Notes: a model not told the origin generated them from the letters alone. DNA of 64,000 nucleotides from an uncultured Candidatus Saccharibacteria bacterium (GCA_964481175.1 CAYZSZ010000001.1:1602-65601), one strand, 5' to 3'; positions 12,999 through 49,672 are shown, counted from the stretch's first letter. A program made the numbers and translations.

Positions 12999-13023
12999 TT
13001 TTTGTGGTATAAATATCGCAGCT

Positions 13024-13218
13024 ATGAAGACCATCCTCACCACAATCGGGATCTGTGTAATCGCACTAATCCTCTTGGCTGTCATTCTGTTCTTTACCCT
13101 CAGGGCTTTCTTGAAAAGAAACGGCCCTCCTGAGCCCAGGCCCCGAGACGACAACCCCTTCAAAAACCCTCTGGAACTTCCTGAATACCCAGAAGGAGTT
13201 TCGAAAGGGGACATCTGA
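13024..13218 (+). CDS. small single-TM protein (64 aa) with Pro/acidic tail, hypothetical
   Basis: ORF bracketed by two terminators and preceded by an extended -10 TGgTATAAA (13005-13013). Hydrophobic helix 'ILTTIGICVIALILLAVILFF'. GC-richer than neighbouring genes. Confidence 0.4.
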   Translation: MKTILTTIGICVIALILLAVILFFTLRAFLKRNGPPEPRPRDDNPFKNPLELPEYPEGVSKGDI

Positions 13219-13237
13219 GTGTGCACCACACGCTCCA

Positions 13238-13275
13238 CCCACCACAAACAACCCACGTGGTGGGCTTGTTGTTTT
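13238..13275 (+). terminator. rho-independent terminator
   Basis: Perfect 8-bp stem CCCACCAC/GTGGTGGG followed by a T-rich tail. Confidence 0.55.
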
Positions 13276-13285
13276 AATAACTAAT

Positions 13286-13855
13286 ATGTATACTCATTTC
13301 ATGAATGAAGAAGAAATAAAGTACGAAGAAACTGATCTCGACGACTCTGTCGTGACAGAGGAAAATGCAGTCGAGGCTGTTAAAAAGCTAAAAGAAAAAC
13401 TAAAGAAAGCGCTTGCAGAAAAGCAAGAGTATTTGACTGGTTGGCAAAAAGCTAAAGCTGATTTTATCAACGCACGCAAGAAAGATGAAGAGTCACAAAA
13501 AGAGTTTTTAAAGTACGCTAACGAGGGAATCATCACTGAGCTCATTGCTACCGTCGATAGTTTCAATATGGCTTTTGCAAACAAAGAATCATGGGAGAAG
13601 GTAGATAAAAACTGGAGAATGGGAGTTGAGTATATTTACAGCCAGTTCTTTAAAACTCTTGAGAGCTATGGACTCAAGGAGATAAATCCTCTAAATGAAA
13701 AGTTCGACCCTACCCGAGACGAAGCGACTGCATACGAGCCAGTTACCGAAGAAGCAAAAGATCATATGATCATTGAAGTAGTACAGAAAGGATATTCTCT
13801 AAACGGAAAAGTGTTAAAGGCACCAAAAGTAAAAGTAGGGGAGTTTAAAAAATAA
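13286..13855 (+). CDS. grpE: nucleotide exchange factor GrpE
   Basis: Coiled-coil N-terminus and GrpE C-terminal beta-domain 'VVQKGYSLNGKVLKAPKVKVGEF'. Confidence 0.85.
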   Translation: MYTHFMNEEEIKYEETDLDDSVVTEENAVEAVKKLKEKLKKALAEKQEYLTGWQKAKADFINARKKDEESQKEFLKYANEGIITELIATVDSFNMAFANKESWEKVDKNWRMGVEYIYSQFFKTLESYGLKEINPLNEKFDPTRDEATAYEPVTEEAKDHMIIEVVQKGYSLNGKVLKAPKVKVGEFKK

Positions 13856-14061
13856 GAAACGGCCGGCCCTCATGGACCGACCGTTGAACCCAAAGCTTCC
13901 GCTGCCCAACTTGTGAAGATGTCCGAGTTGCCCCAGACTTCCTGAACAAAAAGCGGATGCCTTGGACCCAGCTATGCTACAGGCATAACCACTGATATAT
14001 TACTACTTTATATAGAATATGTCAATAGTAGTATAGCCAAAACTTTGATATAATTTCACAT

Positions 14062-14349
14062 ATGTTAGTAACTACCCGCGGACAAAAAGTAATAGAGAAA
14101 ATTGTCACCAATCGTAAAGGACAAATGATGCGAGTGGCTTTTCTCGTCACTGAGATTGCTGGGGCTATCCAGGTAAAAGTCCTCTCAGCTACTCCTGTCG
14201 TTGCGCTTACTTCTGTTGCTCTTGCTATCGTTGGAAATGTTCAAAATATAGTAAATAAATTTTCTGCAACTTACTCTGAATTCGTTTCTGGTTTTTCTGA
14301 CTTTGCATTTTTCATGAGCCAACCAACACGAGCTCCGGCGTTTATATAA
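14062..14349 (+). CDS. doubtful small ORF between grpE and dnaK
   Basis: 95-aa ORF with no SD sequence and a low-complexity product; may be non-coding leader. Confidence 0.2.
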   Translation: MLVTTRGQKVIEKIVTNRKGQMMRVAFLVTEIAGAIQVKVLSATPVVALTSVALAIVGNVQNIVNKFSATYSEFVSGFSDFAFFMSQPTRAPAFI

Positions 14350-14380
14350 TTTTTCTTATTAGAATTAATTATATTTAACT

Positions 14381-16255
14381 ATGTCTAAAATAATCGGAAT
14401 CGATCTTGGAACCACCAACTCTGCAGTTGCAGTGATGGAACTCGGAACTCCAAAGATCCTAGAAAACGCAGAAGGTGCTCGTACGACTCCATCTATCGTC
14501 GCTCAGTCTAAAACTGGCGAGAGAATGGTGGGACTACTAGCAAAACGACAAGGTGTTACAAACCCAAAAAATACGATATATCAGATCAAGCGATTTATCG
14601 GTCACACCTTTGACGATGCAGCAGTGCAGAAAGATCGCTCATCAGTGCCATTCGAAATGCAGAAATCTGCAAGCGGAGGTATCGAAGTAAAAATGGGAGA
14701 CAAATGGAATCGTCCAGAAGAAATCTCTGCGATGATTTTGCAAAAGCTAAAGGCAGATGCAGAAGCACGACTCGGTGAACCAGTCACAGAGGCAGTGATC
14801 ACCGTGCCTGCATACTTTAACGATGCACAGCGACAAGCAACAAAAGACGCTGGAAAGATCGCAGGACTCGATGTAAAGCGAATCATCAACGAGCCGACCG
14901 CAGCAGCACTCGCATATGGCTTCAACAAAAAGAAAGATGAAAAAATTGTGGTCTTCGACTTTGGAGGAGGTACATTCGACATATCAGTACTCGAAGTAGG
15001 AGATGATGTAGTCGAAGTAAAATCAACTGATGGAGATGCGCACCTCGGAGGAAAGGATATCGACCAAAAGATCATCAACTGGCTCGCAGACGAGTTCAAA
15101 AAGACTTCGGGTATCGATGTACGAGGCGATGCACTCGCACTTCAGCGACTCGACGAAGCAGCAGAGAAGGCAAAGATTGAGCTTTCAACTGCCATGCAGA
15201 CTGAGGTAAACATCCCATTCATTACTTCAGGTGCAAATGGTCCTCAGCACTTGCTCCTCACGATGACTCGAGCAAAACTCGAAGAGCTCACCGCAGAGTT
15301 TATCGACCGAGCGATGGCAATCACCAAGCGAGCGATGGAAGCTTCACCATTTAAAATCGCTGATATCAACGAAGTCATCCTCGTCGGAGGACAGACTCGT
15401 ATGCCAGCGATCCAAGCGGCCGTAAAGAACTACTTTGGAAAGGAGCTCCACATGGGAGTAAACCCTGACGAAGTAGTAGCTATCGGTGCAGCGATCCAGG
15501 GAGGTATCCTTGCTGGAGATGTAAAAGACGTACTGCTTCTCGATGTGATCCCGCTATCTCTCGGCATCGAAACCATGGGAGGAGTGGCTACAAAGCTCAT
15601 CGAAAAGAACACGACTATCCCAACATAAAAGTCACAGGTATTCTCAACAGCCGCTGATAACCAGACCGATGTAACGATCCACATCGTTCAGGGAGAACGA
15701 CCGATGGTGGCGGACAACAAGTCACTCGGACAGTTTAACCTCGGTGGTATCGCTCCGGCTCCACGTGGTACTCCACAAATCGAAGTCACTTTTGACATCG
15801 ATGCAAACGGAATTCTCAACGTTTCAGCAAAAGATAAAGCAACTGGAAAATCAAGCTCTATCAAAATCACTGCAAGCTCAGGTCTTTCAAAAGAAGAGGT
15901 AGAGAAAATGCAGAAGGAAGCTGAGATGCACAAAGCAGAAGATGAAAAGAAAAAAGCAGCTGTCGAAGCAAAAAACTTTGCGGAGCAGATGATTTACACT
16001 GCTGAAAAATCTTTGAAAGACTTCAAGGATAAAATCCCAGCTGATGTAACCAAGTCTATCGAGGACAAAGTAGCGGCTCTCAAGACAGTAAAAGAGGGAA
16101 CTGATGCAGCGGCGATAAAGTCAGCAACAGATGCATTGTCTGCTGAACTACAGAAGATCGGAGACATTGTAAACAAAGCTCAAGCAGAACAACCAAAGAA
16201 AGAAGAAGGTGGAGATCCTAATGTTCGAGACGCTGAGTTTAAAGAGAAGAAATAA
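14381..16255 (+). CDS. dnaK: molecular chaperone DnaK, interrupted by an in-frame TAA at 15626-15628
   Basis: Two same-frame ORFs (14381-15628; 15704-16255) together give a colinear ~624-aa Hsp70. Sequence across the stop reads '...[35 protein letters not shown]...', where Hsp70s have Lys at the stop position. Confidence 0.85.
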
Positions 16256-16258
16256 ACA

Positions 16259-16288
16259 AAAAAGCCCCTTGACCAAGGGTGCTTTTTT
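16259..16288 (+). terminator. putative terminator after dnaK
   Basis: Imperfect CCCTT-GACC-AAGGG hairpin followed by TTTTTT. Confidence 0.35.
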
Positions 16289-16305
16289 GTTATAGTGAAG
16301 CCACT

Positions 16306-19300
16306 ATGAAAAAACTAATCCCGGTAATCCTATTTTCTTTATTGCTGCCAGTTTTTGTTGTTTTTGCTCAGACTCCGGCATATAAAGACATGACTTATGT
16401 GAGTGGCTTTGCTCCAGCAACTTCGATGGAGTTTGCCCCGGACGGTAGAATATTTGTAGCAGAACGTGGAGGTAAGGTGCGAGTCATCAAAAACGGCCAG
16501 CTACTACCGACGCCTTTTTTGACTGTCTCTGTGGCACTAAATGGAGAACGTGGTCTAAGCGGTATCACACTCGACCCAAACTTTAGAACAAATGGGTATG
16601 TTTATATCTATTACACACGTGCAAACGAACCTATAAAAAATAGACTCAGCAGATTTACCGTAAGCGCAACAAATCCAGATGTAGCAGACCCGAACTCTGA
16701 AAAAATACTCATTGATGATATTGGATCTGACTCAGGCATACACAATGGCGGGGCACTGCACTTTGGTAAAGACGGAAAACTATATGTCGCTGTCGGTGAC
16801 GGTGGGTCATTCCGAGCAAATGCACAAATTCTTACGAATCTATCTGGAAAGATTTTAAGAATAAATCCAGACGGGACTATTCCAAATGATAATCCATTTA
16901 TCGGATACTCTCTACCAGGAGTGCGCACTGAGATCTGGGCATTTGGCTTTAGAAATCCATTTACGTTTGCAGTAGACCCGGTGAGTGGAAAGATCTATGT
17001 AAACGACGTAGGCGAAACAACGTGGGAAGAGATTAATATCTTGCAACGTGACGGTAACTACACATGGCCAAGATGTGAAGGTCCGCAAAATACTGGGGTA
17101 GGTGAATGCGCTGATTCAGATTTCCAGTATCCACTATACGCCTACAATCACAATAAAAAAGGGGCTTCAATAACTGGTGCCGCTTTTTACAAAGGAGACT
17201 ACTACTTTGGTGATATGGTTTTAAAGGTTATTCGAAAGATGAATTCGAATAATGCTGTTTCCGATTTTATTTCTACATCAGAACTACCTGTAGATATCGA
17301 TGCGGGCCCAGATGGAAACTTGTATTACCTAGGTTATGGGGGAAAGGTGATGAAAATAGTTGCTCAGGACACTCCAATAAACGGTTTATGCGCGGTGACC
17401 GTAGTAAATATCTGCCACTCAGGAACTTTCACCGACCTACCTGACTCTGCAACACATGCACTATGGAGCTGTGTCGGATCATCTGGAGGAACAACAGCTT
17501 CATGTAGTGTACCGCTCAGCTCCAACAAGCTGCCAACTGCAACCATTACTACTCCAGTTGTAAATGCAAAGTACAACGCTGGCCAAACTATATCTTTTTC
17601 CGGAACAGGGACAGATCCCGAAGACGGCACACTACCCGCAAGTGCTTTTTCTTGGTCAGTAGTGTTTCATCACAATACTCACACACATCCATTCCTTGGC
17701 CCAATCACTGGAAAGACTGGAGATTCTTTTGTTGTACCAAACACAGGAGAGCTTGCAGATGATGTCTGGTATCGTATATATCTCACTGTAACTGATTCGA
17801 AAGGTGCAAAGAGCGAAGTGTATAGAGATGTATATCCAAATGTAGTAACACTAACCTTTAGAACAAACCCGGCAGGAAAAAATGTTACCGTAGACGGGCA
17901 ACCACAGACTACACCTTACGTAGTTAAAAGTGTTGTGGGTATGAAACGTATCATATCGGTAGATTCACAAGATTTCTTTGAGTGGTCAAACAATGGCGCA
18001 CGCGAGCAGACTATAACTACACCAACTACAGATACTGCCTATACCGCATCATTTAGTGCTCCAAGACCGACAAGTGTTGTTATGCAGCCATACTACGGCT
18101 CAGGTGATCTTTCTATTCACATGCAAAAAGAAGTTGACGATCGTATTGGAGGGAATATGGCTAATGCCACAACAAAATCACTTTGGTACACTCGAGGCTC
18201 AAACACAGCGGCTTGGGAGCAAAATCCATTCACATTTCTTCGTGGTAATGGGATCGGTATCGATCTCAATGGACAATCACCGTGGAACTCACTAGGTCAG
18301 TATGCTCGATCTGGTACGTTGATTTCGCCTCGACATATTATCTTTGCCAAACATTTTCGTCTTAGTGCTGGGACAACAGTTGTCTTTGTAGATTCAACAA
18401 ATAGAATTGTCGAAAGAACAATTGAAAAAGTAGAGCTCGCGCCAGACCCACTAGATATTGGTGTTGGATTACTAAACAAAGATGTACCAGAGAATATTCC
18501 TTTTTATCCGATTATCTCCCGAAGTATTTGGCAGCAATATCTTGGCAACGTTGGAACAAATGTAGATATTCCTATCATTTATCTCGACCTTGAAGACAAG
18601 ATTGGGGTTCATGTAATCAAAGCAAATGCACTCTACAGCAACAGCGCCAACCTTTCACACGTAAAAGGCACAGGAAAACGAGCTGAGTTCGACGAACCAA
18701 TAGTACTAGGTGACTCCGGAAATCCTGCTTTCGCAATTATTGGTGGTCAACCCGTGCTCTTGTTTACCCACTTTGATTTTCCATTTGGACCAAACTTCGC
18801 TACCCATTTCGATCTGATCAATGGTCTGATGACAAAACTGGGTGGAGGCTACCAATTGTCGACTTTGGATTTGTCACGCTTTGATACCTCAGTGCCAAAA
18901 TTTACTCTAACAGTATCAAAACCGATTGGAGGGACTGTTATTGCCGCTGGTGGAATAAACTGTGGTACAAACTGCTCCGCTCAATACAATAAAGATACCG
19001 AGGTTTCACTTGCAGCAGATAAGGCTACAGGATATGTATTTAGCGGCTGGTCTGGTGACTGTACGGGAACTGGCCTTTGTACTGTAAAAATGGATAAAGC
19101 AAAAACAGTCACTGCGAATTTCACAGTGGCTAACACTGCGCCTATTGCACAAAATGCGACCTTTACATTTTCTGGAACTTCAACAACAGTGGCACTTTCT
19201 GCAAGTGATGCACAAAACGATTCACTCACATACACACTAAGTACACTTTCAACTCCAAAAGGGACTTTGACCAAAGTAAACGAAACGACATACACATATA

Positions 19301-20523
19301 CACTTAAAACACCACTTCCAACCACTTCATTCACTGAGACTTTTACATTTACAGCAAGCGACGGGCGCCTAGCAAGTAACAACGCTACCATAACATTGCA
19401 GTACACAGTAACAGCTCCACCAAAATACAATCTTACTGTTTCAAAAACAGGGCAGGGCACAATACAAGGAACTGGTATTTCATGTGGAGTAGACTGTGCC
19501 GAACAAATAAATGCCGGTAGTGTTATTTCACTTCTTGCAATACCTGCTTCTGGATACACATTTAGTAGATGGACGGGCGACTGTACGAGCACCTCAATCT
19601 CTTGTTCGGTTACATTGGACAAGCCAAAGACTGTTAATGCAATCTTTGTTCTGGCTTTGAATCTAGACGCAGATGGAGACGGTATACTACTCCCACTAGA
19701 CAAATGTCCAAACACACTTCCTGCCGTTCGAAATCAAGTAAACCGTGCTGGATGTGTCCGACCAAAACTTACTAAGTTCACAACCAAACCAGTTGTAGAA
19801 GATGACATCAGTGCAGTTCCAAACGTTGAGCTCGGTATAAACAATGTTGGAAAAATCAAATTCAACACACCAGTAGCACTTACTCGCGAGAATGCTGTAA
19901 TCGACATAGACGCAAACGTTATTATTGAACAAGACAAAGTGGAGATTAAATCTTCAGTAATTCCTGAGCTCAACAGGCCAGCAACTATCACTCTCTACAA
20001 TATCGACGAAAAAAATCCTCGTATTCTGCGTGACGGCGTAGTCTGTTCTGAGCCGCAGTGTAAGATAGAGTCATTCTCAAATGGAACACTGGTCTTTACG
20101 GTTAGCGGCTTTTCGCTCTATACTGTAGAAGAGACTCCGGTCACTGCCACATCTACTCCTAACGTCGAAGAAAAACCAAAACGTAGAGGTGGTGGAGGGG
20201 GAGGGGGAGGCGGAGGTGCTCCAAAATCTGCAACCTCAAACGAAGAGTTGATCGCACAGCTTACTGCTCAACTCAACATGCTTATCGCCGAACTAAATAG
20301 ACTGACAGGCGGAAGCATGCTCACTTCAGACCTTACACAAGGTATGCGTGGAGCAGAGGTCACAAAATTACAAAACAAACTTACTGCAAAAGGATTCCCA
20401 GTAAGTTCTAGCGGATACTACGGAACACAGACAACAACAGCAGTAAAGAAATTTCAGACAAGTAAAGGCATCACACCGACAGGAAATGTAGGTCCCCTTA
20501 CTCGAGCTCAACTAAACAAATAA
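16306..20523 (+). CDS. giant secreted multidomain surface protein (domain order in evidence)
   Basis: Signal peptide; SGL/glucose-dehydrogenase-like beta-propeller ('HNGGALHFGKDGKLYVAVGDGG'); Ig/PKD-like domain; divergent trypsin-like domain ('ISPRHIIFAKHF', 'GDSGNPAF'); two InlB-B-type repeats ('GGINCGTNCSAQY...SGWSGDC', 'GISCGVDCAEQ...SRWTGDC'); thrombospondin-type-3 'DADGDGILLPLDKCPN'; Gly10 tract; C-terminal PG_binding_1-like domain. Confidence 0.7.
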   Translation: MKKLIPVILFSLLLPVFVVFAQTPAYKDMTYVSGFAPATSMEFAPDGRIFVAERGGKVRVIKNGQLLPTPFLTVSVALNGERGLSGITLDPNFRTNGYVYIYYTRANEPIKNRLSRFTVSATNPDVADPNSEKILIDDIGSDSGIHNGGALHFGKDGKLYVAVGDGGSFRANAQILTNLSGKILRINPDGTIPNDNPFIGYSLPGVRTEIWAFGFRNPFTFAVDPVSGKIYVNDVGETTWEEINILQRDGNYTWPRCEGPQNTGVGECADSDFQYPLYAYNHNKKGASITGAAFYKGDYYFGDMVLKVIRKMNSNNAVSDFISTSELPVDIDAGPDGNLYYLGYGGKVMKIVAQDTPINGLCAVTVVNICHSGTFTDLPDSATHALWSCVGSSGGTTASCSVPLSSNKLPTATITTPVVNAKYNAGQTISFSGTGTDPEDGTLPASAFSWSVVFHHNTHTHPFLGPITGKTGDSFVVPNTGELADDVWYRIYLTVTDSKGAKSEVYRDVYPNVVTLTFRTNPAGKNVTVDGQPQTTPYVVKSVVGMKRIISVDSQDFFEWSNNGAREQTITTPTTDTAYTASFSAPRPTSVVMQPYYGSGDLSIHMQKEVDDRIGGNMANATTKSLWYTRGSNTAAWEQNPFTFLRGNGIGIDLNGQSPWNSLGQYARSGTLISPRHIIFAKHFRLSAGTTVVFVDSTNRIVERTIEKVELAPDPLDIGVGLLNKDVPENIPFYPIISRSIWQQYLGNVGTNVDIPIIYLDLEDKIGVHVIKANALYSNSANLSHVKGTGKRAEFDEPIVLGDSGNPAFAIIGGQPVLLFTHFDFPFGPNFATHFDLINGLMTKLGGGYQLSTLDLSRFDTSVPKFTLTVSKPIGGTVIAAGGINCGTNCSAQYNKDTEVSLAADKATGYVFSGWSGDCTGTGLCTVKMDKAKTVTANFTVANTAPIAQNATFTFSGTSTTVALSASDAQNDSLTYTLSTLSTPKGTLTKVNETTYTYTLKTPLPTTSFTETFTFTASDGRLASNNATITLQYTVTAPPKYNLTVSKTGQGTIQGTGISCGVDCAEQINAGSVISLLAIPASGYTFSRWTGDCTSTSISCSVTLDKPKTVNAIFVLALNLDADGDGILLPLDKCPNTLPAVRNQVNRAGCVRPKLTKFTTKPVVEDDISAVPNVELGINNVGKIKFNTPVALTRENAVIDIDANVIIEQDKVEIKSSVIPELNRPATITLYNIDEKNPRILRDGVVCSEPQCKIESFSNGTLVFTVSGFSLYTVEETPVTATSTPNVEEKPKRRGGGGGGGGGGAPKSATSNEELIAQLTAQLNMLIAELNRLTGGSMLTSDLTQGMRGAEVTKLQNKLTAKGFPVSSSGYYGTQTTTAVKKFQTSKGITPTGNVGPLTRAQLNK

Positions 20524-21366
20524 ATGGCAAAAGACTTTTATAAAATTTTAGGGGTTGAAAAAAATGCTTCGCAAGACGAAATCAAAAAAGCATTTCGTAA
20601 ACTCGCGCACCAATATCATCCAGACAAAAACAAAGGTGATGATACAAAGTTCAAAGAAGTAAACGAAGCATACACCGTTCTATCAGACGAACAGAAGCGA
20701 AAGCAATACGACATGTACGGCAATACTGACGCTGGTTTTGGAGGATTCAATGGAGCTCAAGGCTTTGGCGGCTTTGATTTTTCTCAGTTCACACAAAATG
20801 GCCAATCATTTGAGTTTGATCTAGGAGATGTCTTCAATGATTTTTTTGGTGGAGCACGACGTCCTAGAAAAGGAAGAAACATCACCATCGATATCCAACT
20901 CACATTCAAAGAGGCCGCATTTGGAACAGAACGTGAGATTTCAAACGGTAAAGAAAAGATCACCGTAAAGATTCCATCAGGTATCAACAATGGCGAAGGA
21001 CTACGTGTAAGCGGCAAAGGAGAGACAGGAGAAGCTGGTCCAGGAGATCTCATCGTCCGTATCTGGGTTGCAGAGCACAAAACGCTTCGACGTGAGGGCT
21101 ACAATGTAATCACTCAAGTCAAAGTAAAACTTTCATTAGCACTTTTGGGTGGAGAAATAACAGTGGAATCGCTCGATGGAAACATCGAAGTAAAAGTGCC
21201 ACAAGGTGTCATCCACGGTGAAATGCTCCGTATAAAAGGAAAGGGAATACAGCACGAAAATGGCAAGCGTGGGGATATGTACGTGGCTATACTTATCGAT
21301 ATTCCTCGAAAACTCTCAAAATCAGCCACAAAGCTAGTTGAAGAATTAAAGAAAGAGGGTATATAA
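20524..21366 (+). CDS. dnaJ: J-domain co-chaperone, CbpA-like DnaJ without Cys-rich zinc finger
   Basis: J domain '[33 protein letters not shown]', G/F-rich linker, C-terminal substrate-binding domains, no CxxCxGxG repeats. Confidence 0.8.
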
Positions 21367-21375
21367 TAGAGTGCA

Positions 21376-22287
21376 ATGAAAAAGATACTGCTCTCAGGAG
21401 TAAAACCGACTGGCCGTCCTCACTTAGGAAACTTTTTTGGTGCCATGAAGCAGTGGGTAAATTTACAGAACGATTATGAAATGTACGTCATGATCGCTGA
21501 TTATCATGCCCTCAACTTTATCCAGAATAAAGATGAAATGCTCTCTCAGACTGAAGAAATGATTAAAGACTATTTGGCAATCGGTCTCGATCCAGAAAAA
21601 GTCACTTTCTTTAAGCAATCTGATGTGAGCGCTCACACCGAGCTAGCTTGGATTTTTGACACCATCACCACAGTTCCGTATCTCATGCGTGCACATGCCT
21701 ACAAAGACAAAGATGGGGATGTGAGCGTAGGAACTTTTAACTATCCGATGCTCATGGCAGCAGATATTCTTTTGTATGACACCGACATTGTCCCTGTCGG
21801 CCAAGACCAAAAGCAACATATCGAAATCACTCGTGACACTGCAATAAAATTCAACAATGCATTTGGTGACGTATTTAAGCTTCCTGAAGAACTGATCCAA
21901 AAAGAAGTAGCGGTAGTTCCTGGCACCGATGGACGAAAGATGTCAAAGAGTTACAAAAACACAATTCCACTTTTCGCTACTTATGAAGAGATTCAAAAAG
22001 CGGTGATGAGTATCGTCACTGACTCTGGTGGAGACATCCCAAAGAACGTCTACGAAATACACAAACTCTTCGGAAACGTCGACCAGTTCTATGCAGAAAA
22101 TAAAGGCAAATACAAAGTCCTCAAAGAAAAACTGATCGAAGATATTGAGGCCTTCATAAAGCCCCTCCGCGAGCGACGAGAGAAAGTCAGTGTTCAAGGA
22201 GTCCTCGAGAAAGGAAAGGTCCGAGCAAAGGAAAGAGCCGACAGAAAACTAGAAGAAGTAAAAAAGGCCATCGGCGTCCTCAAATAA
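21376..22287 (+). CDS. trpS: tryptophan--tRNA ligase
   Basis: Class-I motifs 'TGRPHLGNF' (HIGH-like) and 'KMSKS' at 'RKMSKSYKN'; ~300 aa. Confidence 0.85.
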   Translation: MKKILLSGVKPTGRPHLGNFFGAMKQWVNLQNDYEMYVMIADYHALNFIQNKDEMLSQTEEMIKDYLAIGLDPEKVTFFKQSDVSAHTELAWIFDTITTVPYLMRAHAYKDKDGDVSVGTFNYPMLMAADILLYDTDIVPVGQDQKQHIEITRDTAIKFNNAFGDVFKLPEELIQKEVAVVPGTDGRKMSKSYKNTIPLFATYEEIQKAVMSIVTDSGGDIPKNVYEIHKLFGNVDQFYAENKGKYKVLKEKLIEDIEAFIKPLRERREKVSVQGVLEKGKVRAKERADRKLEEVKKAIGVLK

Positions 22288-22288
22288 C

Positions 22289-23008
22289 ATGTCATTCGTC
22301 ATCAAACACGAACAATTTGAAGGGCCCCTCGATTTACTCCTCACACTGATTGAGAAGCGAAAATTGTTTGTGAATGATATATCACTTGCCAAAGTGACTG
22401 ACGACTATGTTGCATATCTCCAGCAGAATTCTTTCACCATGGGTGACGCTGCGAGTTTTATCCTGATCGCCTCTACACTTCTTTTAATAAAGTCAAAGTC
22501 ACTTCTTCCAGCACTTACTCTAACCGAAGAAGAAACAAACGATGTGTCCGATCTACAAACTCGCCTGACACTGTATGAAATATATCGCCGTGCATCATAC
22601 AAAATCAAAGCGCTTTTTGGAAAAACAATCTTGTTTGCTCGCAACCGACCAAAAGTAATCGACCCAGTTTTTTCTCCTGACCAGTCGATGACGTTGAAAA
22701 ATCTGCACTTGGCAGTACTCAGTGTGCTCAATTCTCTCCCAAAGAAAGAAAAGCTACCCGAAGTAAAAGTAAAAAAGATCATGAGCCTCGAAGAGATGAT
22801 CGACAGTCTTTCTGGTCGCATTCAATCAAGCTTACGTATGAGCTTCAAAGATTTTTCTAAAACAAAAGAGCGTGTCGAGGTTATCGTGGGCTTTCTAGCA
22901 CTTTTGGAACTGGTAAAAAATGGCGTAGTGCAGGCCGAACAAAGCGAAACTTTCAGTGACATTCACATGGAGAGTAACAATATTGGAATTCCGCGGTATA
23001 ATGTCTAA
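22289..23008 (+). CDS. scpA: segregation and condensation protein A
   Basis: 'FEGPLDLLLTLIEKRKLFVNDISLAKVTDDYVAYL' is the ScpA N-terminal signature. Confidence 0.8.
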   Translation: MSFVIKHEQFEGPLDLLLTLIEKRKLFVNDISLAKVTDDYVAYLQQNSFTMGDAASFILIASTLLLIKSKSLLPALTLTEEETNDVSDLQTRLTLYEIYRRASYKIKALFGKTILFARNRPKVIDPVFSPDQSMTLKNLHLAVLSVLNSLPKKEKLPEVKVKKIMSLEEMIDSLSGRIQSSLRMSFKDFSKTKERVEVIVGFLALLELVKNGVVQAEQSETFSDIHMESNNIGIPRYNV

Positions 23009-23518
23009 ATGACACTTGATGCACGCATTGAGGCTATCCTCTTTTGGAAAGCGGAGCCTATCAAAATCTCAAAGCTGGCAAGTCTTCTCGACAAACAAGA
23101 GGGGGATATTCGTGATGCACTCGAGGACCTAAAAGAAAAGCTCGAAGAAAGAGGCGTAGCCTTAGTCGAATGGGAAGACGAAGTCACTCTCACCACAGCG
23201 CCTGGAGTGAGTGAGCTTATTGAGTCGATGACAAAAGAAGAGTTGATGAAAGACCTGGGGAAAGCAGGTCTCGAAACTCTATCGATTGTCCTCTACAAAG
23301 GACCTATCAGCCGGGCAGACATCGACTACGTAAGAGGGGTAAACTCTGCCTTTATCCTGAGAAACTTGGCTATACGGGGTCTTATCATAAAAGAAGAAAA
23401 CAAATACAAGCCGACGCTTGAGTTGATTTCTCATTTGGGTATTAAAAACATCGAAGAATTACCAGATAAAGAAAGCATACTGGCCGAGCTCGATAAAGCC
23501 TTAGAGATCCATGAATAA
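23009..23518 (+). CDS. scpB: segregation and condensation protein B
   Basis: Winged-helix ScpB 'IEAILFWKAEPIKISKLASLL'. Confidence 0.8.
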   Translation: MTLDARIEAILFWKAEPIKISKLASLLDKQEGDIRDALEDLKEKLEERGVALVEWEDEVTLTTAPGVSELIESMTKEELMKDLGKAGLETLSIVLYKGPISRADIDYVRGVNSAFILRNLAIRGLIIKEENKYKPTLELISHLGIKNIEELPDKESILAELDKALEIHE

Positions 23519-25205
23519 ATCTATATTTTCGATTCTCATAGCGATGCTCGTGTTGTTTATCGTATTTTCTATTGGCGTAAAGGAAAAAGTAAAGACACCC
23601 CTGGCAATCAAAACTGCTACGGTAGATTTCCAAAAAATCGATCCGCCGATTCTAACTGCGAGCTCTTCTATCGTGGTTATGTACACTGCATCTAGCTCAA
23701 AAGTCTTGTACGAAAAGAATCCAAACGAAGAGCTGCCGATCGCGAGTATCACAAAGCTTTTTACAGCATATGTTTCTTCCACCTCCGAACTTTTTCAGCC
23801 GATGCTCATCGAATCCAGCAATGATGCAGCTTTAAAGGTGACAAAGCCACGTACAGTCGAAACTATGAATGCGTTCGCACGTGGTGCAGGACTTACTCAT
23901 ACAACTTTCTTTAACACTGTTGGCACGGACCGACCGGGACCGAACGTCTCTAGTGCATCTGATGTTTCAAAAGCAGTATATGCAATGTACATGACTCAGC
24001 ACGGTCGTGAAATATTTGATATAAGCACCACAGTTACACCAAAAGCTACAAATAGATCACTCACCGACAAGCGAATCCCTTTTGAAATAGTCGGCGGTAA
24101 AACTGGCGAGACACCAAAAGCGGGACAGACGCTCACTCTTATAACCAAAGGACCAAACAATAGCTATTTAGTTTTTGTAGTACTCGGTTCAAAAGATCGT
24201 TTCGGGGACATGGTGACGCTCACAAACTGGGTTCATGATTCATTTTATCCAAAGCAAAAAGATCCATTACAAAAAATACAGTGGGTACTCGCAACAAGCA
24301 CTGCGGCCTGGGGTACTCGTGACGCACACTCTTTAGTTACTTTTAAAGACAAGATGTTCTTGATCGGTGGTGTAAATGGAAATGCAGTCGTTGATCCAAA
24401 TGGCATGGTTCGATACTGGGACGCACCCCACAAAAGCGATATTTGGGTTACAGAGGACGGTACAAATTGGAAGATGATTACCGACAAAGCACCGTGGAGC
24501 CAGCGACGTTCTGTCACTACCGCAGTGTTTAAAGACAAACTCTGGCTTATGGGTGGTTGGGATCAATACGGATTCAAATACGATAATCGTATTTGGTTTA
24601 CTGATGATGGAGTTACATGGACACTTGCCACTTCTACTAGCCCGCGTTGGGAGGGAAGAGAGGGACACACACTAAACGTACACGACGGCAAACTATGGTT
24701 GGTTGGTGGTGTGAACTTTGTAAAACGAACTACCTACAACGATGTTTGGTCATCCGAAGATGGCATAAACTGGAAACAAGTCACGGCAAACGCTCCTTGG
24801 TCACCTCGTTACGATCATGCTGTTTCTGTTTTCGACAATGAGTTGTATCTCACGGGTGGGCTACACATCGGCACACATACAACTGAGAGCGAAGTCTGGG
24901 TCAGCAAAGACGGACTCAACTGGGAGCACCGAGTACCTGAGTGGCCATCACGACTCGGACATATTTCTTATGTATTCAAAAATGCTTTGTGGATTACAGG
25001 AGGCTGGAATGCAACGGCTGATACAGGTATCAACGACACATGGTTTACGTATGATGGGGTAAAATGGCTAAAAACAGATACAGACGGTCCATGGATTGGT
25101 CGCGAAGACACTATGGGAGAAGTCTTTAAAAACAAAATGTGGCTTACAGGTGGGATGGACACAAACGAACACTGGAATAGCGATGTATACTATTCAAGTA
25201 TATGA
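23511..25205 (+). CDS. S11 D-Ala-D-Ala carboxypeptidase (PBP5-like) fused to C-terminal Kelch-type beta-propeller
   Basis: SxxK 'ASITK', SxN 'ESSND', KTG 'GGKTGET'. Followed by six repeats of '...W..R..H..V.F..KLWL.GG...'. Confidence 0.65.
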   Translation: MNKSIFSILIAMLVLFIVFSIGVKEKVKTPLAIKTATVDFQKIDPPILTASSSIVVMYTASSSKVLYEKNPNEELPIASITKLFTAYVSSTSELFQPMLIESSNDAALKVTKPRTVETMNAFARGAGLTHTTFFNTVGTDRPGPNVSSASDVSKAVYAMYMTQHGREIFDISTTVTPKATNRSLTDKRIPFEIVGGKTGETPKAGQTLTLITKGPNNSYLVFVVLGSKDRFGDMVTLTNWVHDSFYPKQKDPLQKIQWVLATSTAAWGTRDAHSLVTFKDKMFLIGGVNGNAVVDPNGMVRYWDAPHKSDIWVTEDGTNWKMITDKAPWSQRRSVTTAVFKDKLWLMGGWDQYGFKYDNRIWFTDDGVTWTLATSTSPRWEGREGHTLNVHDGKLWLVGGVNFVKRTTYNDVWSSEDGINWKQVTANAPWSPRYDHAVSVFDNELYLTGGLHIGTHTTESEVWVSKDGLNWEHRVPEWPSRLGHISYVFKNALWITGGWNATADTGINDTWFTYDGVKWLKTDTDGPWIGREDTMGEVFKNKMWLTGGMDTNEHWNSDVYYSSI

Positions 25206-26293
25206 CAAAGAGAATTGATTCTTTATATCTAACTTCTGTAATTCTTATTACCGTGTTTGGTTTTGTTACTTTCTTTTCGGCTTCTTTTGGTTTACTTGTA
25301 AAAGATGACGCACTTGCAAACTCAGTGCTCTTTAATCAAAGCATTGGTCTCCTCTTGGGAATAATCGCATTCTTTGTTGCGTCTCGAGTAAACTATTTAT
25401 TTTACCGAAAACATGCCTTGGCTATTTTTGCTGCCACGCTATGCGTAAACGTTCTTTTGTTTATACCGAGCCTGACACTAAAGCACGGTGGTGCATCTCG
25501 TTGGCTAGACTTTAGATATTTTACTATTCAACCATCTGAACTTTTAAAAATTGGTTTTATCATATACCTCGGTGGCTGGCTTGCATTTGTCAAAACAAAA
25601 ATTGAAAGCATCAAATTTGGAATCGCACCATTTCTTTGTATTATCGGCATTGTCTCGATTTTGCTACTCGCACAGTCTGATACAGACACCCTAGTCGTGA
25701 TCGGACTTACTGGGATTACTATGCTTTTTGTGGCTGGAGCAAAGATACGACATATCGCTTTAATCGGTCTTTTAGCAGTCATTTTCTTGTCAGCTATCAT
25801 TATGGTGCGACCGTATGCTAGACAGCGTGTAATGACCTATTTAAACCCAAATAATGACCCTCAGGGCTCTAGTTACCAGATACAGCAGTCACTTATCGCC
25901 ATCGGTTCAGGAGGACTTACAGGGCGCGGTTTTGGTCAAAGTATTCAAAAGTTCAGCTATCTGCCAGAGCCAGTAGGGGACTCTATATTTGCTGTTGCCG
26001 CAGAAGAGTTTGGATTTATCGGTATGTTTATTATGTTGTGTTTATATGTATTTTTTGTTCAAAGAACGTTTAAAATCGCCGCACGAGCACCAGATACATT
26101 TAGTAGACTAGTGGTCCTCGGAATTGGTATACTAGTCGTAGTTGAGTCATTTATGAATATCAGTGCCATGCTAGGAGTGATACCCCTTACCGGTCAGCCA
26201 CTACTGTTTGTGAGTCACGGTGGAACGGCTTTGGCTATCATCCTCGGAGCATCTGGTATCATTGCAAATATCTCAAGATACCAACAACGATGA
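25202..26293 (+). CDS. ftsW: SEDS-family peptidoglycan glycosyltransferase (FtsW/RodA)
   Basis: Ten-TM SEDS protein with 'LPEPVGDSIFAVAAEEFGFIG' motif. Confidence 0.85.
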   Translation: MTKRIDSLYLTSVILITVFGFVTFFSASFGLLVKDDALANSVLFNQSIGLLLGIIAFFVASRVNYLFYRKHALAIFAATLCVNVLLFIPSLTLKHGGASRWLDFRYFTIQPSELLKIGFIIYLGGWLAFVKTKIESIKFGIAPFLCIIGIVSILLLAQSDTDTLVVIGLTGITMLFVAGAKIRHIALIGLLAVIFLSAIIMVRPYARQRVMTYLNPNNDPQGSSYQIQQSLIAIGSGGLTGRGFGQSIQKFSYLPEPVGDSIFAVAAEEFGFIGMFIMLCLYVFFVQRTFKIAARAPDTFSRLVVLGIGILVVVESFMNISAMLGVIPLTGQPLLFVSHGGTALAIILGASGIIANISRYQQR

Positions 26294-27417
26294 AAATATT
26301 ACTTACAGGAGGCAGCACGGGCGGTCACTTTTATCCACTCATCGCAGTGGCTGAATCTCTCTATGATCGCGCACTTCAAAAGAAAATTATCAAGCCAGAG
26401 ATCTGGTACATGGATTCCTCAAAGTACAATCCACGAGCTTTGTTTGATAACGACATTCAGTTTATAGAAGTTCCGGCCGGAAAACTCCGCCGCTATTTTT
26501 CGTTCTTAAACTTTACCGATTTGTTTAAAACTGCTATCGGTATCGTCCTCGCCCTTATCAATATGTGGAAGCTATACCCAGATGTTGTCTTTGGAAAGGG
26601 AGGCTACTCTAGCTTTCCAGCCTTAGTCGCTGCTCGCTTTTTTGGAATACCTGTGGTCATCCACGAGTCAGACAGCAGACCAGGTAGGGTCAACGCATGG
26701 GCAGGAAAATTTGCAAAACGCATTGCAGTATCATATCCAGACGCTGCTGAGTATTTTGATAGCTCAAAAGTCGCATATACTGGCAACCCAATCAGACGCG
26801 AAATACGTATTCCTCTAAATGAGGGCTCGCATGAGCAGCTCGGCATCGACAAAACTATCCCAACACTCTTGATCTTGGGAGGATCACAGGGTTCACAACT
26901 TATCAATGACGTGATTCTCGATTCACTTCCTGTTCTTTTGGAAAAATACAATATCATCCACCAAACTGGTAGAAAAAACTTTGCTGAAGTTACGAGAACT
27001 GCAGGAGTTATCCTCGCAAACAACAAAAACAGCAATCGCTACAAACCTCTCGATTATCTAAACGATCTTACTATCCGTCTCACTTCAGGAGCTGCTGACT
27101 TGATCGTTTCACGAGCAGGTTCTACCATATTTGAGATAGCAGCATGGCAAAAGCCAAGCATCGTAATACCGATTTCACCAGCAGTGAGCCATGACCAAAC
27201 AAAAAATGCATTTTCATACGCTCGTGCTGGAGCTTGCAAGGTGATTGAAGAGCACAATCTTACGACACACGTATTTATTGCCGAAGTTGAAAACCTTATG
27301 TCTAATCCAGCAGAACGAAAGCAATTGGCAGACAATGCGGGCAAGTTTGCTCGCCTCGATAGTGGGGACAAAATAGCCGATGTTTTGCTCGAAATAGCCC
27401 TCGAACACGAAAAGTAA
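26290..27417 (+). CDS. murG: UDP-GlcNAc:undecaprenyl-PP-MurNAc-pentapeptide GlcNAc transferase MurG
   Basis: 'ILLTGGSTGGHFYPLIAVAESL' N-terminus and GT28 C-terminal domain. Confidence 0.85.
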   Translation: MKILLTGGSTGGHFYPLIAVAESLYDRALQKKIIKPEIWYMDSSKYNPRALFDNDIQFIEVPAGKLRRYFSFLNFTDLFKTAIGIVLALINMWKLYPDVVFGKGGYSSFPALVAARFFGIPVVIHESDSRPGRVNAWAGKFAKRIAVSYPDAAEYFDSSKVAYTGNPIRREIRIPLNEGSHEQLGIDKTIPTLLILGGSQGSQLINDVILDSLPVLLEKYNIIHQTGRKNFAEVTRTAGVILANNKNSNRYKPLDYLNDLTIRLTSGAADLIVSRAGSTIFEIAAWQKPSIVIPISPAVSHDQTKNAFSYARAGACKVIEEHNLTTHVFIAEVENLMSNPAERKQLADNAGKFARLDSGDKIADVLLEIALEHEK

Positions 27418-46898: not shown

Positions 46899-46905
46899 AT
46901 TTATT

Positions 46906-48183: not shown

Positions 48184-48272
48184 GTGGTAAGTATAGCACT
48201 GTTGACTTTATGTAAAGACAATGTCATAATCCGCCTGTTAGTCAACAAAAACCAAGAGAAAGAGAGTTCTAG

Positions 48273-48869: not shown

Positions 48870-48903
48870 TCTACGGTTCGGAGCACTCCTCAAGCTTCAA
48901 CGA

Positions 48904-48936
48904 CCCATCATGTCTCTGACCTCTGGTGGGTTTTTC
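48904..48936 (+). terminator. terminator after SixA-like copy 1
   Basis: CCCATCA-N13-TGGTGGG stem followed by TTTTT. Confidence 0.5.
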
Positions 48937-49013
48937 TATTATTGACTCACAAGGCGAATTATAGTAAAAAGATGTAGTTAGTAAACAGAACCAAAAAGAA
49001 GAAAGGTAGTCTT

Positions 49014-49637: not shown

Positions 49638-49672
49638 CAAGTACGGTTCGGAGCATTCCACAAGCTTCAAAA

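What the first reader, a model, noticed from the sequence alone, without database searches (positions are those of the whole stretch)
16306..20523. About 1400-aa multidomain surface protein inserted between dnaK and dnaJ
The giant secreted protein sits exactly between dnaK and a CbpA-like dnaJ, with the dnaJ ATG directly after its stop. Its domains in order: an SGL/PQQ-type sugar-dehydrogenase-like beta-propeller; an Ig/PKD-like domain; a region with a possible trypsin-like catalytic triad context ('ISPRHIIFAKHF' ... 'DPLDIGVGLLNKD' ... 'GDSGNPAF'); two Cys-containing InlB-B-type repeats; a cadherin-like domain; a thrombospondin-type-3 Ca-binding motif; a Gly10 linker; and a C-terminal peptidoglycan-binding domain. 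A cell-wall-anchored, possibly proteolytic or carbohydrate-binding surface protein embedded in the heat-shock operon is unusual. In an episymbiotic lifestyle it could mediate host attachment.
Basis: partly seen in the sequence, partly recalled or inferred. Interest (0 to 1): 0.55.

Follow-up and report, generated by a model that had tools for sequence, protein, structure and literature searches.

The report
Wall-anchored protease with Nup98-like domain
A 1,405-residue secreted protein of a Paceibacterota (candidate phyla radiation) bacterium lies between dnaK and dnaJ; it carries a sugar-dehydrogenase-like propeller and an unclassified trypsin-fold protease on a stalk that ends in a peptidoglycan anchor, and that anchor is preceded by a bacterial relative of the self-cleaving domain of the nuclear-pore protein Nup98.

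Summary
The ORF is real: 16306-20523 (+), 1,405 aa, signal peptide, dnaJ ATG directly after its TAA.

- GSDH propeller (E 1.7e-57), two Flg_new_2 repeats, Big_9/cadherin-like, Gly10 and C-terminal PG_binding_1 are confirmed.
- The PKD and TSP3 calls are weak.

- Profile against PDB sequences gives E 2.4e-8, with only Nup98/Nup145/Nup116 significant.
- The site reads GF|S where Nup98 has HF|S.
- With PG_binding_1 it forms a recurrent C-terminal cassette under varied passengers.

The family has about 1,900 cluster representatives. I found no paper on prokaryotic members.

The gene is not clearly inside the dnaK transcript, because a terminator and a promoter-like site separate them. Its position after dnaK recurs in two relatives. 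The passenger part is far more diverged than the flanks. Catalysis, self-cleavage and host attachment are untested.

The parts
14381..16258 (+). dnaK. It carries an in-frame TAA at 15626-15628 in this window only.
   Evidence: Translation. The independent assembly L005 has TCA (Ser) at that codon, a single C>A difference at 15627.
16256..16290 (+). Intrinsic-terminator-like hairpin after dnaK, with an A-tract, stem and U-tract.
   Evidence: Folding gives -17.7 kcal/mol, z -4.9. L006 has a different-sequence hairpin at the same place, -26.1 kcal/mol.
16269..16296 (+). Promoter-like site TTGACC-16-TATAGT with a TG extension, 10 nt upstream of the ATG.
   Evidence: Best-scoring site (10 of 12, tied with one at 21338-21367) on this strand in 13000-22500. 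This is a consensus match only.
16306..20523 (+). The whole gene, 1,405 aa plus TAA.
16306..16368 (+). Sec-type signal peptide (aa 1-21, predicted cleavage VFA|QT).
   Evidence: Read from the sequence. No predictor was run.
16420..17244 (+). GSDH-type six-bladed beta-propeller (aa 39-313).
   Evidence: PF07995 E 1.7e-57. PDB 2ISM E 1.9e-36, 3A9G and 2G8S; the HNGG and RNP motifs align.
17377..17511 (+). Four-Cys module (aa 358-402).
   Evidence: Sequence and Cys pairs 362/370 and 389/400. No family hit.
17518..18060 (+). PKD/Ig-like domain with an HHNTHTHP loop, plus a further beta-rich stretch (aa 405-585).
   Evidence: Weak only: PKD_4 E 0.0038, Big_7 E 0.0075; ColG PKD domain E 0.1.
18061..18900 (+). 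Chymotrypsin-fold serine-protease domain of an unclassified family (aa 586-865). Catalytic codons: His683 18352-18354, Asp717 18454-18456, Ser804 18715-18717.
18898..19128 (+). Flg_new_2 (divergent InlB B-repeat) copy 1, aa 865-941, with two Cys pairs.
   Evidence: PF18998, two stretches; PF09479 and TIGR02543.
19132..19398 (+). Big_9 / cadherin-like Ig domain (aa 943-1031).
   Evidence: PF17963 E 5.3e-9, PF17803, PF17892.
19426..19650 (+). Flg_new_2 copy 2 (aa 1041-1115).
   Evidence: PF18998 best stretch.
19657..19713 (+). TSP3-like Ca-binding motif LNLDADGDGILLPLDKCPN (aa 1118-1136).
   Evidence: PF02412 E 0.1 here; E 3e-4 at the same position in P0048 and P0051.
19762..20130 (+). Nup98-type (peptidase S59) autoproteolytic-domain homologue (aa 1153-1275). 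Candidate scissile bond Phe1269|Ser1270 (20110-20115).
20131..20217 (+). Pro/Thr-rich linker, basic patch KPKRR and Gly10 (aa 1276-1304).
   Evidence: Sequence. The same pattern occurs in other cassette proteins.
20239..20307 (+). Short amphipathic helix NEELIAQLTAQLNMLIAELNRLT (aa 1312-1334).
   Evidence: Sequence; conserved in cassette proteins. Not modelled.
20347..20514 (+). PG_binding_1 peptidoglycan-binding domain (aa 1348-1403).
   Evidence: PF01471 E 5.1e-14. PDB 5NM7, 7RUM and 5TV7.
20524..21366 (+). dnaJ, type without a zinc finger. Its ATG abuts the stop of the surface-protein gene.
   Evidence: The same junction occurs in L006.

Best explanation
The gene encodes a Sec-exported, disulfide-rich surface protein of a Paceibacterota bacterium.

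Its C-terminal PG_binding_1 domain holds it non-covalently on peptidoglycan, most simply the producer's own wall. Above the anchor come a flexible Pro/Thr, basic and Gly10 linker and a Nup98-type (S59-like) beta-sandwich. A Ca-binding motif and Ig-like repeats (Flg_new_2, Big_9) then form a stalk. At the distal end sit two enzyme-like heads: a chymotrypsin-fold serine protease with an intact His683-Asp717-Ser804 triad, and a GSDH-type sugar-dehydrogenase-like propeller with a PKD-like domain.

The protease head belongs to an unclassified family whose other members sit mostly in phage structural (tail/baseplate) gene modules. This points to a role in cutting a cell-surface polymer, either surface or S-layer protein or peptidoglycan peptide. 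The substrate is unknown.

The C-terminal unit [TSP3]-[S59-like]-linker-[PG_binding_1] is a reusable anchoring cassette. Related proteins mount different passengers on it (protease alone, ConA-like lectin, GSDH). In this locus the passenger part has been exchanged or has diverged far faster than the cassette and the flanking genes.

By analogy with Nup98, the S59-like domain may cleave itself between Phe1269 and Ser1270. That would leave the ~134 kDa head held non-covalently on a ~14 kDa wall-bound stub.

Shown here: the ORF, the domain identities, the folds, triad conservation, recurrence of the cassette and the divergence pattern. Inferred: export, wall anchoring, proteolytic activity, the substrate and self-cleavage. 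The position next to dnaK/dnaJ is a conserved neighbourhood. The gene probably shares a transcript with dnaJ rather than with dnaK. No chaperone-related function is indicated.
For: ORF, signal peptide and abutting dnaJ.

Domains.

Extracellular character: 18 Cys, all in local pairs within domains.

Own peptidoglycan: FtsW/RodA, MurG, an S11 carboxypeptidase and an M23 peptidase lie in the same window.

Protease:
- AF2 pLDDT 87.6, pTM 0.88.
- His, Asp and Ser are invariant in 46 of 46 homologues. In IMG/VR ORFs they are kept in 87, 86 and 86 of 87.
- Motif-level alignment to trypsin.

Phage link:
- P0012 lies after terminase, portal, capsid, a 1,310-aa protein and a Laminin_G_3 protein. P0009 lies near a gp25 baseplate gene.
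- Two peptide patterns alone found 86 viral-contig matches.
- The best BFVD hit is an uncharacterised Caudovirales protein, E 1e-17.

S59-like domain. The x-[FW]-[ST] motif is kept in about 205 of 228 copies. In Nup98, H862A/Q only slightly reduces cleavage, whereas Phe is structurally essential and Ser is the attacking nucleophile; CARD8 and NLRP1 cleave at SF|S (PMC3210808).

Cassette:
- 8 of 8 tested proteins end in PG_binding_1; 7 of them also score for Nucleoporin2 in Pfam, and all 8 were retrieved by the domain search. Their N-terminal parts differ.
- 7 of the top 150 also carry the protease domain.

Divergence:
- Flanking genes have dS 0.72-0.79 (grpE 1.43) and 90-96% amino-acid identity.
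- The passenger has pS 0.73-0.78 (saturated) and 62-65% identity.
- The S59-like part has dS 0.875.
- Nucleotide identity drops from 0.80-0.91 to 0.57-0.68 at the gene start.
- The repeat region is rearranged in L006.

Terminator and promoter-like site.
Against:
- The S59-like domain has Gly where Nup98 has His. It lacks the Nup98 loop that, by my recollection, contains Lys814; this falls in the gapped region of the alignment.
- The same domain occurs in up to 11 copies in giant proteins. It also ends some proteins exactly at the Phe. Both fit a purely structural module as well as a cleaving one.
- PG_binding_1 is also common in lytic enzymes that target foreign walls (NCBIfam SleB and peptidoglycan-hydrolase hits).
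- The signal peptide was judged by eye.
- The GSDH cofactor and catalytic residues were only compared by alignment.
Confidence: 0.6

Rival explanations
1. The protein is a secreted lytic effector aimed at the host or prey wall. PG_binding_1 targets foreign peptidoglycan, and the trypsin-fold domain is a peptidoglycan-peptide endopeptidase of the virion-associated-hydrolase type. The protein is released, possibly through cleavage at the S59-like domain, rather than displayed.
For: - The protease family sits in phage tail/baseplate modules, where wall-degrading enzymes are typical.
- The PG_binding_1 region resembles those of SleB, endolysins and peptidoglycan hydrolases.
- From general knowledge, alpha-lytic-type chymotrypsin-fold proteases are bacteriolytic.
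Against: - No known virion-associated peptidoglycan hydrolase has this fold, to my knowledge.
- The long Ig/Ca stalk and Gly linker fit display at a distance from an anchor better than a diffusible enzyme.
- The organism makes its own peptidoglycan.
- The cassette also carries lectin-only passengers.
Confidence: 0.2
2. The protein is a non-catalytic adhesin. The propeller, the trypsin-fold domain and the S59-like domain all act only as binding or structural modules, as in HHIP for the GSDH fold and UmbA for the trypsin fold.
For: - The S59-like domain is multi-copy in giant proteins.
- The passenger evolves fast, as is typical of adhesins.
Against: - The triad is invariant over about 130 sequences at 27-40% identity, including GDSG. 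That is hard to explain without catalysis.
- The GSDH HNGG and RNP motifs are retained.
Confidence: 0.1
3. The protein is a functional part of the heat-shock system: an extracytoplasmic quality-control protease co-regulated with DnaK and DnaJ.
For: - It lies directly after dnaK in three lineages (window, L006, L136).
- The dnaJ ATG abuts its stop in two of them.
Against: - A terminator and a promoter-like site lie between dnaK and the gene.
- No CIRCE element is in the window.
- Other Patescibacteria have unrelated genes, or none, in the slot.
- In L136 the downstream gene is not dnaJ.
- The domain content is that of a surface enzyme or adhesin.
Confidence: 0.04
4. The gene is a prophage or phage-tail remnant inserted into the dnaK-dnaJ spacer.
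For: - The protease family is mostly phage-borne.
- The gene's passenger part is far more diverged than the flanks, measured against L006.
Against: - There are no phage genes, integrase or repeats nearby; the flanks are housekeeping genes.
- GC content equals that of the flanks.
- The signal peptide and PG anchor are cellular features.
- The 3' cassette has the same dS as the flanks.
Confidence: 0.03

Closest known systems
Nup98 / Nup145N / Nup116 C-terminal autoproteolytic domain (MEROPS S59, Pfam PF04096)
   Same: - Significant profile-to-sequence match across the whole domain, including the cleavage strand; nVtgFStYs aligns with KVSHFSKYG.
- The buried Phe, the +1 Ser/Thr and the +3 Tyr are conserved.
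   Different: - Extracellular, with a conserved Cys pair.
- Shorter by the Nup98 806-822 loop.
- Gly, Ser or His at -2 rather than always His.
- Next to a wall anchor rather than to Nup96.
- Often multi-copy.
- Cleavage is untested.
Juxta-anchor autoproteolytic modules: GAIN domain of adhesion GPCRs, ZU5/FIIND of CARD8 and NLRP1, and Clostridioides difficile cell-wall protein CwpV
   Same: - A self-cleaving beta-sandwich placed just above the anchor, so that a large ectodomain stays non-covalently attached.
- CARD8 uses SF|S (PMC3210808).
- CwpV is a bacterial wall protein cleaved by an N-O acyl shift (PMC3256870 abstract).
   Different: - No sequence relationship to CwpV was tested.
- GAIN and ZU5 similarity is at fold level only.
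- The anchor here is PG_binding_1, not a membrane helix or CWB2 repeats.
Chymotrypsin-fold serine proteases (MEROPS clan PA, family S1), for example Saccharopolyspora/Streptomyces trypsins and V8/Spl proteases
   Same: - Double beta-barrel fold.
- His-Asp-Ser order with TAAHC-like, DIxLL-like and GDSGxP motifs.
   Different: - No hit to any Pfam trypsin model.
- No Cys.
- An extra invariant His677.
- An N-terminal helical extension.
- A family-specific GGGYQL C-terminal motif.
- Mostly phage-encoded.
Streptomyces umbrella-toxin UmbA proteins (trypsin-like domain plus lectins)
   Different: From memory, the UmbA trypsin domain serves as a docking module. Here the triad is strictly conserved. 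No Umb partner genes are nearby.
Soluble PQQ-dependent aldose/sugar dehydrogenases (E. coli YliI/Asd 2G8S, Thermus 2ISM, Pyrobaculum 3A9G)
   Same: PF07995 at E 1.7e-57. The alignment covers the propeller, with HNGG and RNP motifs kept.
   Different: Here it is the N-terminal head of a 1,405-aa wall-anchored protein. Cofactor binding is untested, and no PQQ synthesis genes were seen in the window.

Membership tests
Peptidase S59 (Nup98-type autoproteolytic domain, PF04096) | Sequence match to the family model above Pfam's gathering score | tested here: met
   31.2 bits against a 28.4 cut-off for the isolated segment. It scores 25.6 bits, below the cut-off, when the whole protein is scanned. 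28 of 40 family members match at E<=0.01.
Peptidase S59 (Nup98-type autoproteolytic domain, PF04096) | Half-open beta-sandwich fold of the APD | tested here: met
   [not shown]
Peptidase S59 (Nup98-type autoproteolytic domain, PF04096) | His-Phe-Ser tripeptide at the scissile bond | tested here: inconclusive
   This protein has Gly1268-Phe1269-Ser1270. Phe and Ser are kept and His is lost. PMC3210808 reports that Nup98 H862A/Q only slightly affects cleavage. The family shows GFS 84, GFT 21, SFT 19, HFT 18, HFS 9.
Peptidase S59 (Nup98-type autoproteolytic domain, PF04096) | Autoproteolysis by N-O acyl shift | not testable with these tools
   Needs expression of aa 1140-1405 with and without S1270A.
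Clan PA / family S1 serine proteases | Chymotrypsin double beta-barrel fold | tested here: met
   [not shown]
Clan PA / family S1 serine proteases | Catalytic triad in the order His, Asp, Ser, with a GDSG motif | tested here: met
   His683, Asp717 and Ser804 are invariant in 46 of 46 homologues and in 86-87 of 87 viral ORFs. They align to His57 and Asp102 of trypsin. Triad geometry in the model could not be measured.
Clan PA / family S1 serine proteases | Sequence membership in a curated S1 model (PF00089, PF13365 and the like) | tested here: not met
   No Pfam family at E<=10, no NCBIfam, no PHROG, and no PDB sequence hit. There are only marginal motif hits to trypsins (E 0.08). I therefore file it as clan-level (fold), not as a member of S1 proper.
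Glucose/sorbosone dehydrogenase (PF07995) | Match to the family model and to solved members | tested here: met
   195.7 bits against a cut-off of 25. 2ISM gives E 1.9e-36.
Glucose/sorbosone dehydrogenase (PF07995) | PQQ/Ca binding and the catalytic His | tested here: inconclusive
   The HNGG and RNP motifs align with 2ISM and 3A9G. Which residues are catalytic rests on my memory. Cofactor binding is not testable here.
PG_binding_1 wall-binding proteins (PF01471) | C-terminal three-helix peptidoglycan-binding domain | tested here: met
   52.6 bits against a cut-off of 23, full-length profile match 1-57.
Sortase-anchored (LPXTG) surface proteins | LPXTG motif followed by a hydrophobic tail | tested here: not met
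   No LP.TG in the protein, and the C-terminus is PG_binding_1.
grpE-dnaK-dnaJ heat-shock operon member | Co-transcription with dnaK and heat-shock control (CIRCE/HrcA) | tested here: inconclusive
   A terminator-like hairpin and a promoter-like site lie between dnaK and the gene. No CIRCE element is in the window. The dnaJ start abuts the stop. Transcripts are not available.

The most novel reading that the evidence does not exclude
The S59-like domain is a working self-cleaving tether. It cuts at Phe1269|Ser1270, so the enzyme-bearing head is held non-covalently on a wall-bound stub and can be shed. The large prokaryotic family it belongs to has about 1,900 cluster representatives, many with canonical HFS/HFT sites. 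That family would be the pool from which eukaryotes recruited the Nup98/Nup145N autoproteolytic domain of the nuclear pore.
Probability: 0.2. Interest if true: 0.85.

Novelty: new variant of a known kind. Interest (0 to 1): 0.62.

Why it matters
Surface proteins are the main candidates for how candidate-phyla-radiation bacteria attach to and feed on hosts, and almost none are characterised. Three testable leads come from this locus.

1. A reusable wall-anchoring cassette (S59-like domain plus PG_binding_1) carries exchangeable enzyme or lectin heads.
2. A serine-protease family has no curated model. It is shared between these cells and large environmental phages, which suggests a common target on cell envelopes.
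3. The Nup98 autoproteolytic domain is normally treated as a nuclear-pore component. Here it has a large prokaryotic, extracellular family with the same Phe-Ser/Thr site. That bears on the origin of a pore component and on the spread of self-cleaving tethers (GAIN, ZU5, SEA-like logic) into bacteria.

Tried and rejected
- Pfam, NCBIfam, PHROGs and PDB sequence searches on the protease segment found nothing. tblastn against GenBank phages found nothing with the window domain, and one hypothetical protein with P0012.
- The word-indexed homologue search performed poorly for the S59-like domain: one hit each with the sequence and with the 40-sequence profile. The exhaustive search was needed.
- phmmer of the S59-like segment alone against PDB found nothing. 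Only the family profile did.
One search repeats the test against deposited PDB sequences.
- The afdb50 fold library was unavailable, so I did not obtain the taxonomic spread of the S59-like fold.
- I tried to place the multi-copy giants taxonomically from contig context, and this was uninformative. Their NxS/T density is higher than that of the cassette proteins (4.9 against 1.1 per 100 aa). This only hints at archaeal, N-glycosylated proteins.
- No CIRCE element was found.
- No second copy of either domain occurs in the window.
- The prophage-insertion idea was rejected: GC content equals the flanks and there are no phage genes nearby.

Full report
OBSERVATION

The window holds one uninterrupted ORF on the + strand. 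Its ATG is at 16306 and its TAA stop at 20521-20523, giving 1,405 aa. The mechanical ORF list begins at an upstream GTG (16279). The ATG opens a textbook Sec signal peptide, MKKLIPVILFSLLLPVFVVFA|QT. An independent gene call on another assembly of the same organism uses it too (L005, ENA scaffold; 2 nt differences in 8,487).

dnaK (14381-16258) lies upstream. The dnaJ ATG (20524) follows the stop codon without a spacer. That dnaJ is 280 aa with J domain and DnaJ_C and no zinc-finger domain. GC content of the gene (0.42-0.43) equals that of its flanks.

ORGANISM AND NEIGHBOURHOOD

The closest genome in the species-representative collection is a MAG titled Candidatus Paceibacterota bacterium Gw_Eff_bin_536 (L006; DnaJ 96% identical). 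It has the same order: grpE, dnaK, a 1,421-aa homologue, dnaJ, trpS.

A third, more distant homologue (P0047, 1,498 aa, 61-65% identical) also directly follows a dnaK 3' end. Its downstream gene starts with a signal peptide, not dnaJ.

In more distant Patescibacteria the arrangement varies:
- dnaK and dnaJ are adjacent in L009, L011, L025 and L029.
- They are separated by an ABC transporter in L013 and by a 343-aa membrane protein in L024.
- dnaJ is elsewhere in L007 and L008.

So the position after dnaK is conserved within this small lineage, and the dnaK-dnaJ junction is a variable slot in the phylum.

A stable hairpin flanked by an A-tract and a U-tract follows dnaK (16256-16290; -17.7 kcal/mol, z -4.9). 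L006 has a hairpin of different sequence at the same place (-26.1 kcal/mol, z -7.4). A promoter-like site scoring 10 of 12, tied for best on this strand in the scanned region (TTGACC-16-TATAGT with TG), overlaps it, 10 nt before the ATG. No CIRCE element is in the window.

The simplest reading is that dnaK ends its own transcript and that the surface gene, dnaJ and trpS form the next unit. This is inference from consensus scans.

Confirmed:
- GSDH propeller, aa 39-313, E 1.7e-57. Solved relatives are 2ISM, 3A9G, 2G8S and sGDH, with the HNGG and RNP motifs aligned.
- Two Flg_new_2 repeats (E 2.3e-19).
- Big_9/cadherin-like, aa 943-1031.
- PG_binding_1, aa 1348-1403 (E 5.1e-14).
- Gly10, aa 1295-1304.

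Weak only:
- PKD-like (E 0.004-0.1).
- TSP3 (E 0.1 here; 3e-4 at the same place in two related proteins).

The 18 cysteines all fall in local pairs inside domains, as expected for an exported protein. There is no LPXTG motif.

THE TRYPSIN-LIKE REGION (aa 586-865)

No Pfam model matches at E<=10, and there is no NCBIfam, PHROG or PDB sequence hit.

The segment nevertheless has 45 clear homologues. In their alignment His683, Asp717 and Ser804 are invariant, as is His677.

I therefore accept it as a clan-PA, chymotrypsin-fold domain with a conserved triad. It is not a member of any curated S1 family.

Most homologues are ~400-aa proteins with an N-terminal Big_2-type Ig domain and the protease at the very C-terminus.
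- Two sit in phage structural modules. P0012 follows terminase, portal, S78 protease, capsid, a 1,310-aa protein and a Laminin_G_3 protein. P0009 is near a gp25 baseplate gene.
- Two others are in cellular contexts.
- Two exact peptide patterns alone found 86 relatives in IMG/VR, on contigs up to 340 kb.
- Among 87 such ORFs the domain is C-terminal in about 65. The triad is kept in 87, 86 and 86 of 87.
- The best BFVD structural match is an uncharacterised Caudovirales protein (E 1e-17).
- GenBank phages hold only one weak relative.

The family is thus mainly a component of environmental phages, probably virion-associated. The window protein carries a cellular, internal copy.

Pfam's Nucleoporin2 model (Nup98-96 autopeptidase S59) scores 25.6 bits on the whole protein. 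It scores 31.2 bits, against a cut-off of 28.4, on the isolated segment.

An exhaustive phmmer search of 1.84 billion cluster representatives found 1,913 proteins at E<=1e-3 and 853 at E<=1e-10. These range up to 5,800 aa with up to 11 copies.

A 40-sequence alignment of family segments gave four results:
2. 28 of 40 members individually hit PF04096.
3. hmmsearch against all PDB sequences returns only Nup98, Nup145 and Nup116 chains below E 0.1, with a best E of 2.4e-8. The alignment runs through the cleavage strand; nVtgFStYs aligns with KVSHFSKYG.

The homology is therefore solid.

At the Nup98 HF|S position this protein has Gly1268-Phe1269|Ser1270. Across 228 family copies about 205 keep [FW]-[ST]: GFS 84, GFT 21, SFT 19, HFT 18, GWS 12, SFS 11, SWS 10, HFS 9. 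Published work states that in Nup98 H862A/Q only slightly reduces cleavage, while Phe is structurally essential and Ser is the attacking nucleophile. It also states that CARD8 and NLRP1 cleave at SF|S (PMC3210808).

Self-cleavage here is thus possible but unproven. Against it are the missing His, a shortened loop, and multi-copy use in giant proteins. In addition, five family members end exactly at the Phe, and a natural TAA stop was checked for P0046. All of this fits a structural module equally well.

Six full-text searches were run; the four aimed at this question found no paper describing prokaryotic S59-type domains. That library lacks most subscription journals, so this is not proof of novelty.

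A REUSABLE CASSETTE

All eight top family members scanned end in PG_binding_1. Seven of them also score for Nucleoporin2 in Pfam, and all eight were retrieved by the domain search. Their N-terminal parts differ: GSDH, Laminin_G_3 lectin, Big_9/Flg_new_2.

The tail after the Phe is about 130-150 aa long. It shows the same Pro/Thr linker, basic patch, poly-Gly or Ser-rich stretch and helix. At least 29 of the top 150 have this anchor, and none of the multi-copy giants do. Seven of the 150 also carry the protease domain, several of them at the N-terminus.

The window also encodes FtsW/RodA, MurG, an S11 carboxypeptidase and an M23 peptidase. The cell therefore makes peptidoglycan to which the anchor could bind.

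DIVERGENCE PATTERN

Measured against L006:
- Flanking genes are 90-96% identical, with dS 0.72-0.79 (grpE 1.43) and dN/dS 0.03-0.06.
- The passenger part (aa 1-865) is 62-65% identical, with synonymous sites at saturation (pS 0.73-0.78).
- The repeat region is rearranged.
- The S59-like part returns to dS 0.875.
- Nucleotide identity falls from 0.80-0.91 to 0.57-0.68 within the 300-nt bin that contains the gene start, and recovers towards the 3' end.

Elevated dS as well as dN points to replacement of the passenger by recombination with a distant allele, not only to fast protein evolution. Two genomes are too few to prove this.

MECHANISM, WITH LEVELS OF SUPPORT

Shown:
- An exported-type, disulfide-rich multidomain protein.
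- A trypsin-fold domain with a conserved triad.
- A GSDH-type propeller.
- An Ig/Ca stalk.
- An S59-type domain.
- A PG-binding C-terminus.
- A recurrent cassette and a hyper-divergent passenger.

Inferred:
- Display on the producer's wall.
- Serine-protease activity against an envelope polymer, either protein or peptidoglycan peptide.
- Sugar binding or oxidation by the propeller.
- Possible self-cleavage at Phe1269|Ser1270, giving a non-covalently tethered head.
- A role in contact with a host.

Rivals are a released lytic effector aimed at foreign peptidoglycan (0.2), a non-catalytic adhesin (0.1), a heat-shock-linked quality-control protease (0.04) and a phage remnant (0.03).

VERDICT

It was right on architecture and on the trypsin guess. 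It was too strong on operon membership and missed the most unusual domain.

As a kind of object this is a wall-anchored multidomain surface enzyme, which is a known kind. Two things make it a new variant:
1. Its protease is from an uncurated, largely phage-borne family.
2. Its anchor cassette contains a prokaryotic Nup98-type domain.

Interest is 0.62.

Noticed in passing
window 15626-15628 (dnaK codon 416): dnaK carries an in-frame TAA (TIPT*KSQVF). An independent assembly of the same organism (L005) has TCA (Ser) there, a single C>A difference at 15627. Relatives also have Ser. This is probably a sequencing or strain variant rather than a true pseudogene.
   Followed up: yes
window 13856-14380: The grpE-dnaK spacer is 525 nt and poorly conserved against L006 (34% identity in one 300-nt bin, with gaps). 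It holds a 95-aa ORF (14062-14349) that was called as a gene elsewhere and has no Pfam hit. No CIRCE element occurs anywhere in the window.
   Followed up: partly
window ~46900-50600: A GC-rich island (0.49-0.52 against 0.42 elsewhere). It encodes an MsrA-MsrB fusion with a MerT-like membrane N-terminus, an unknown 236-aa protein, a histidine phosphatase and a PEP-utiliser-domain protein. It may have been acquired horizontally.
   Followed up: partly
window 23511-25205: A D-Ala-D-Ala carboxypeptidase (Peptidase_S11) fused to a Kelch beta-propeller, followed by FtsW/RodA (25202-26293) and MurG (26290-27417). This is an unusual fusion inside a wall-synthesis cluster.
   Followed up: partly
L053 2-355 (P0046); also P0055, P0061, P0066, P0071: Five proteins of the S59-like family end exactly at the Phe that corresponds to the Nup98 cleavage site (...TVSGF-stop). 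A natural TAA was checked for P0046. They therefore resemble an already cleaved product.
   Followed up: partly
L133 3252-15332 (P0086), L135 4908-18488 (P0060) and other giants: Proteins of 2,000-5,800 aa carry 3-11 copies of the S59-like domain, often with canonical HFS/HFT sites, beside beta-helix/NosD, Laminin_G_3 and DUF285 domains. Their NxS/T density is high (4.9 against 1.1 per 100 aa), which hints at N-glycosylated, possibly archaeal, surface proteins. Their taxon was not established.
   Followed up: partly
L051 10001-11170; L052 10001-11239; L054-L132: The Big_2 plus trypsin-fold protease family has no Pfam or PHROG model. It is common in large environmental phage contigs (up to 340 kb), within tail/baseplate regions, and has a strictly conserved triad.
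   Followed up: partly
L013 4792-6663; L024 6348-7379: Other Patescibacteria have unrelated genes inserted between dnaK and dnaJ (an ABC transporter; a 343-aa multi-pass membrane protein). The junction is therefore a recurrent insertion slot.
   Followed up: yes
window 17377-17511 (aa 358-402): A four-Cys ~45-aa module (C-x7-C ... W-x-C-x10-C) lies between the propeller and the PKD-like domain. It has no family hit and is conserved in L006.
   Followed up: no
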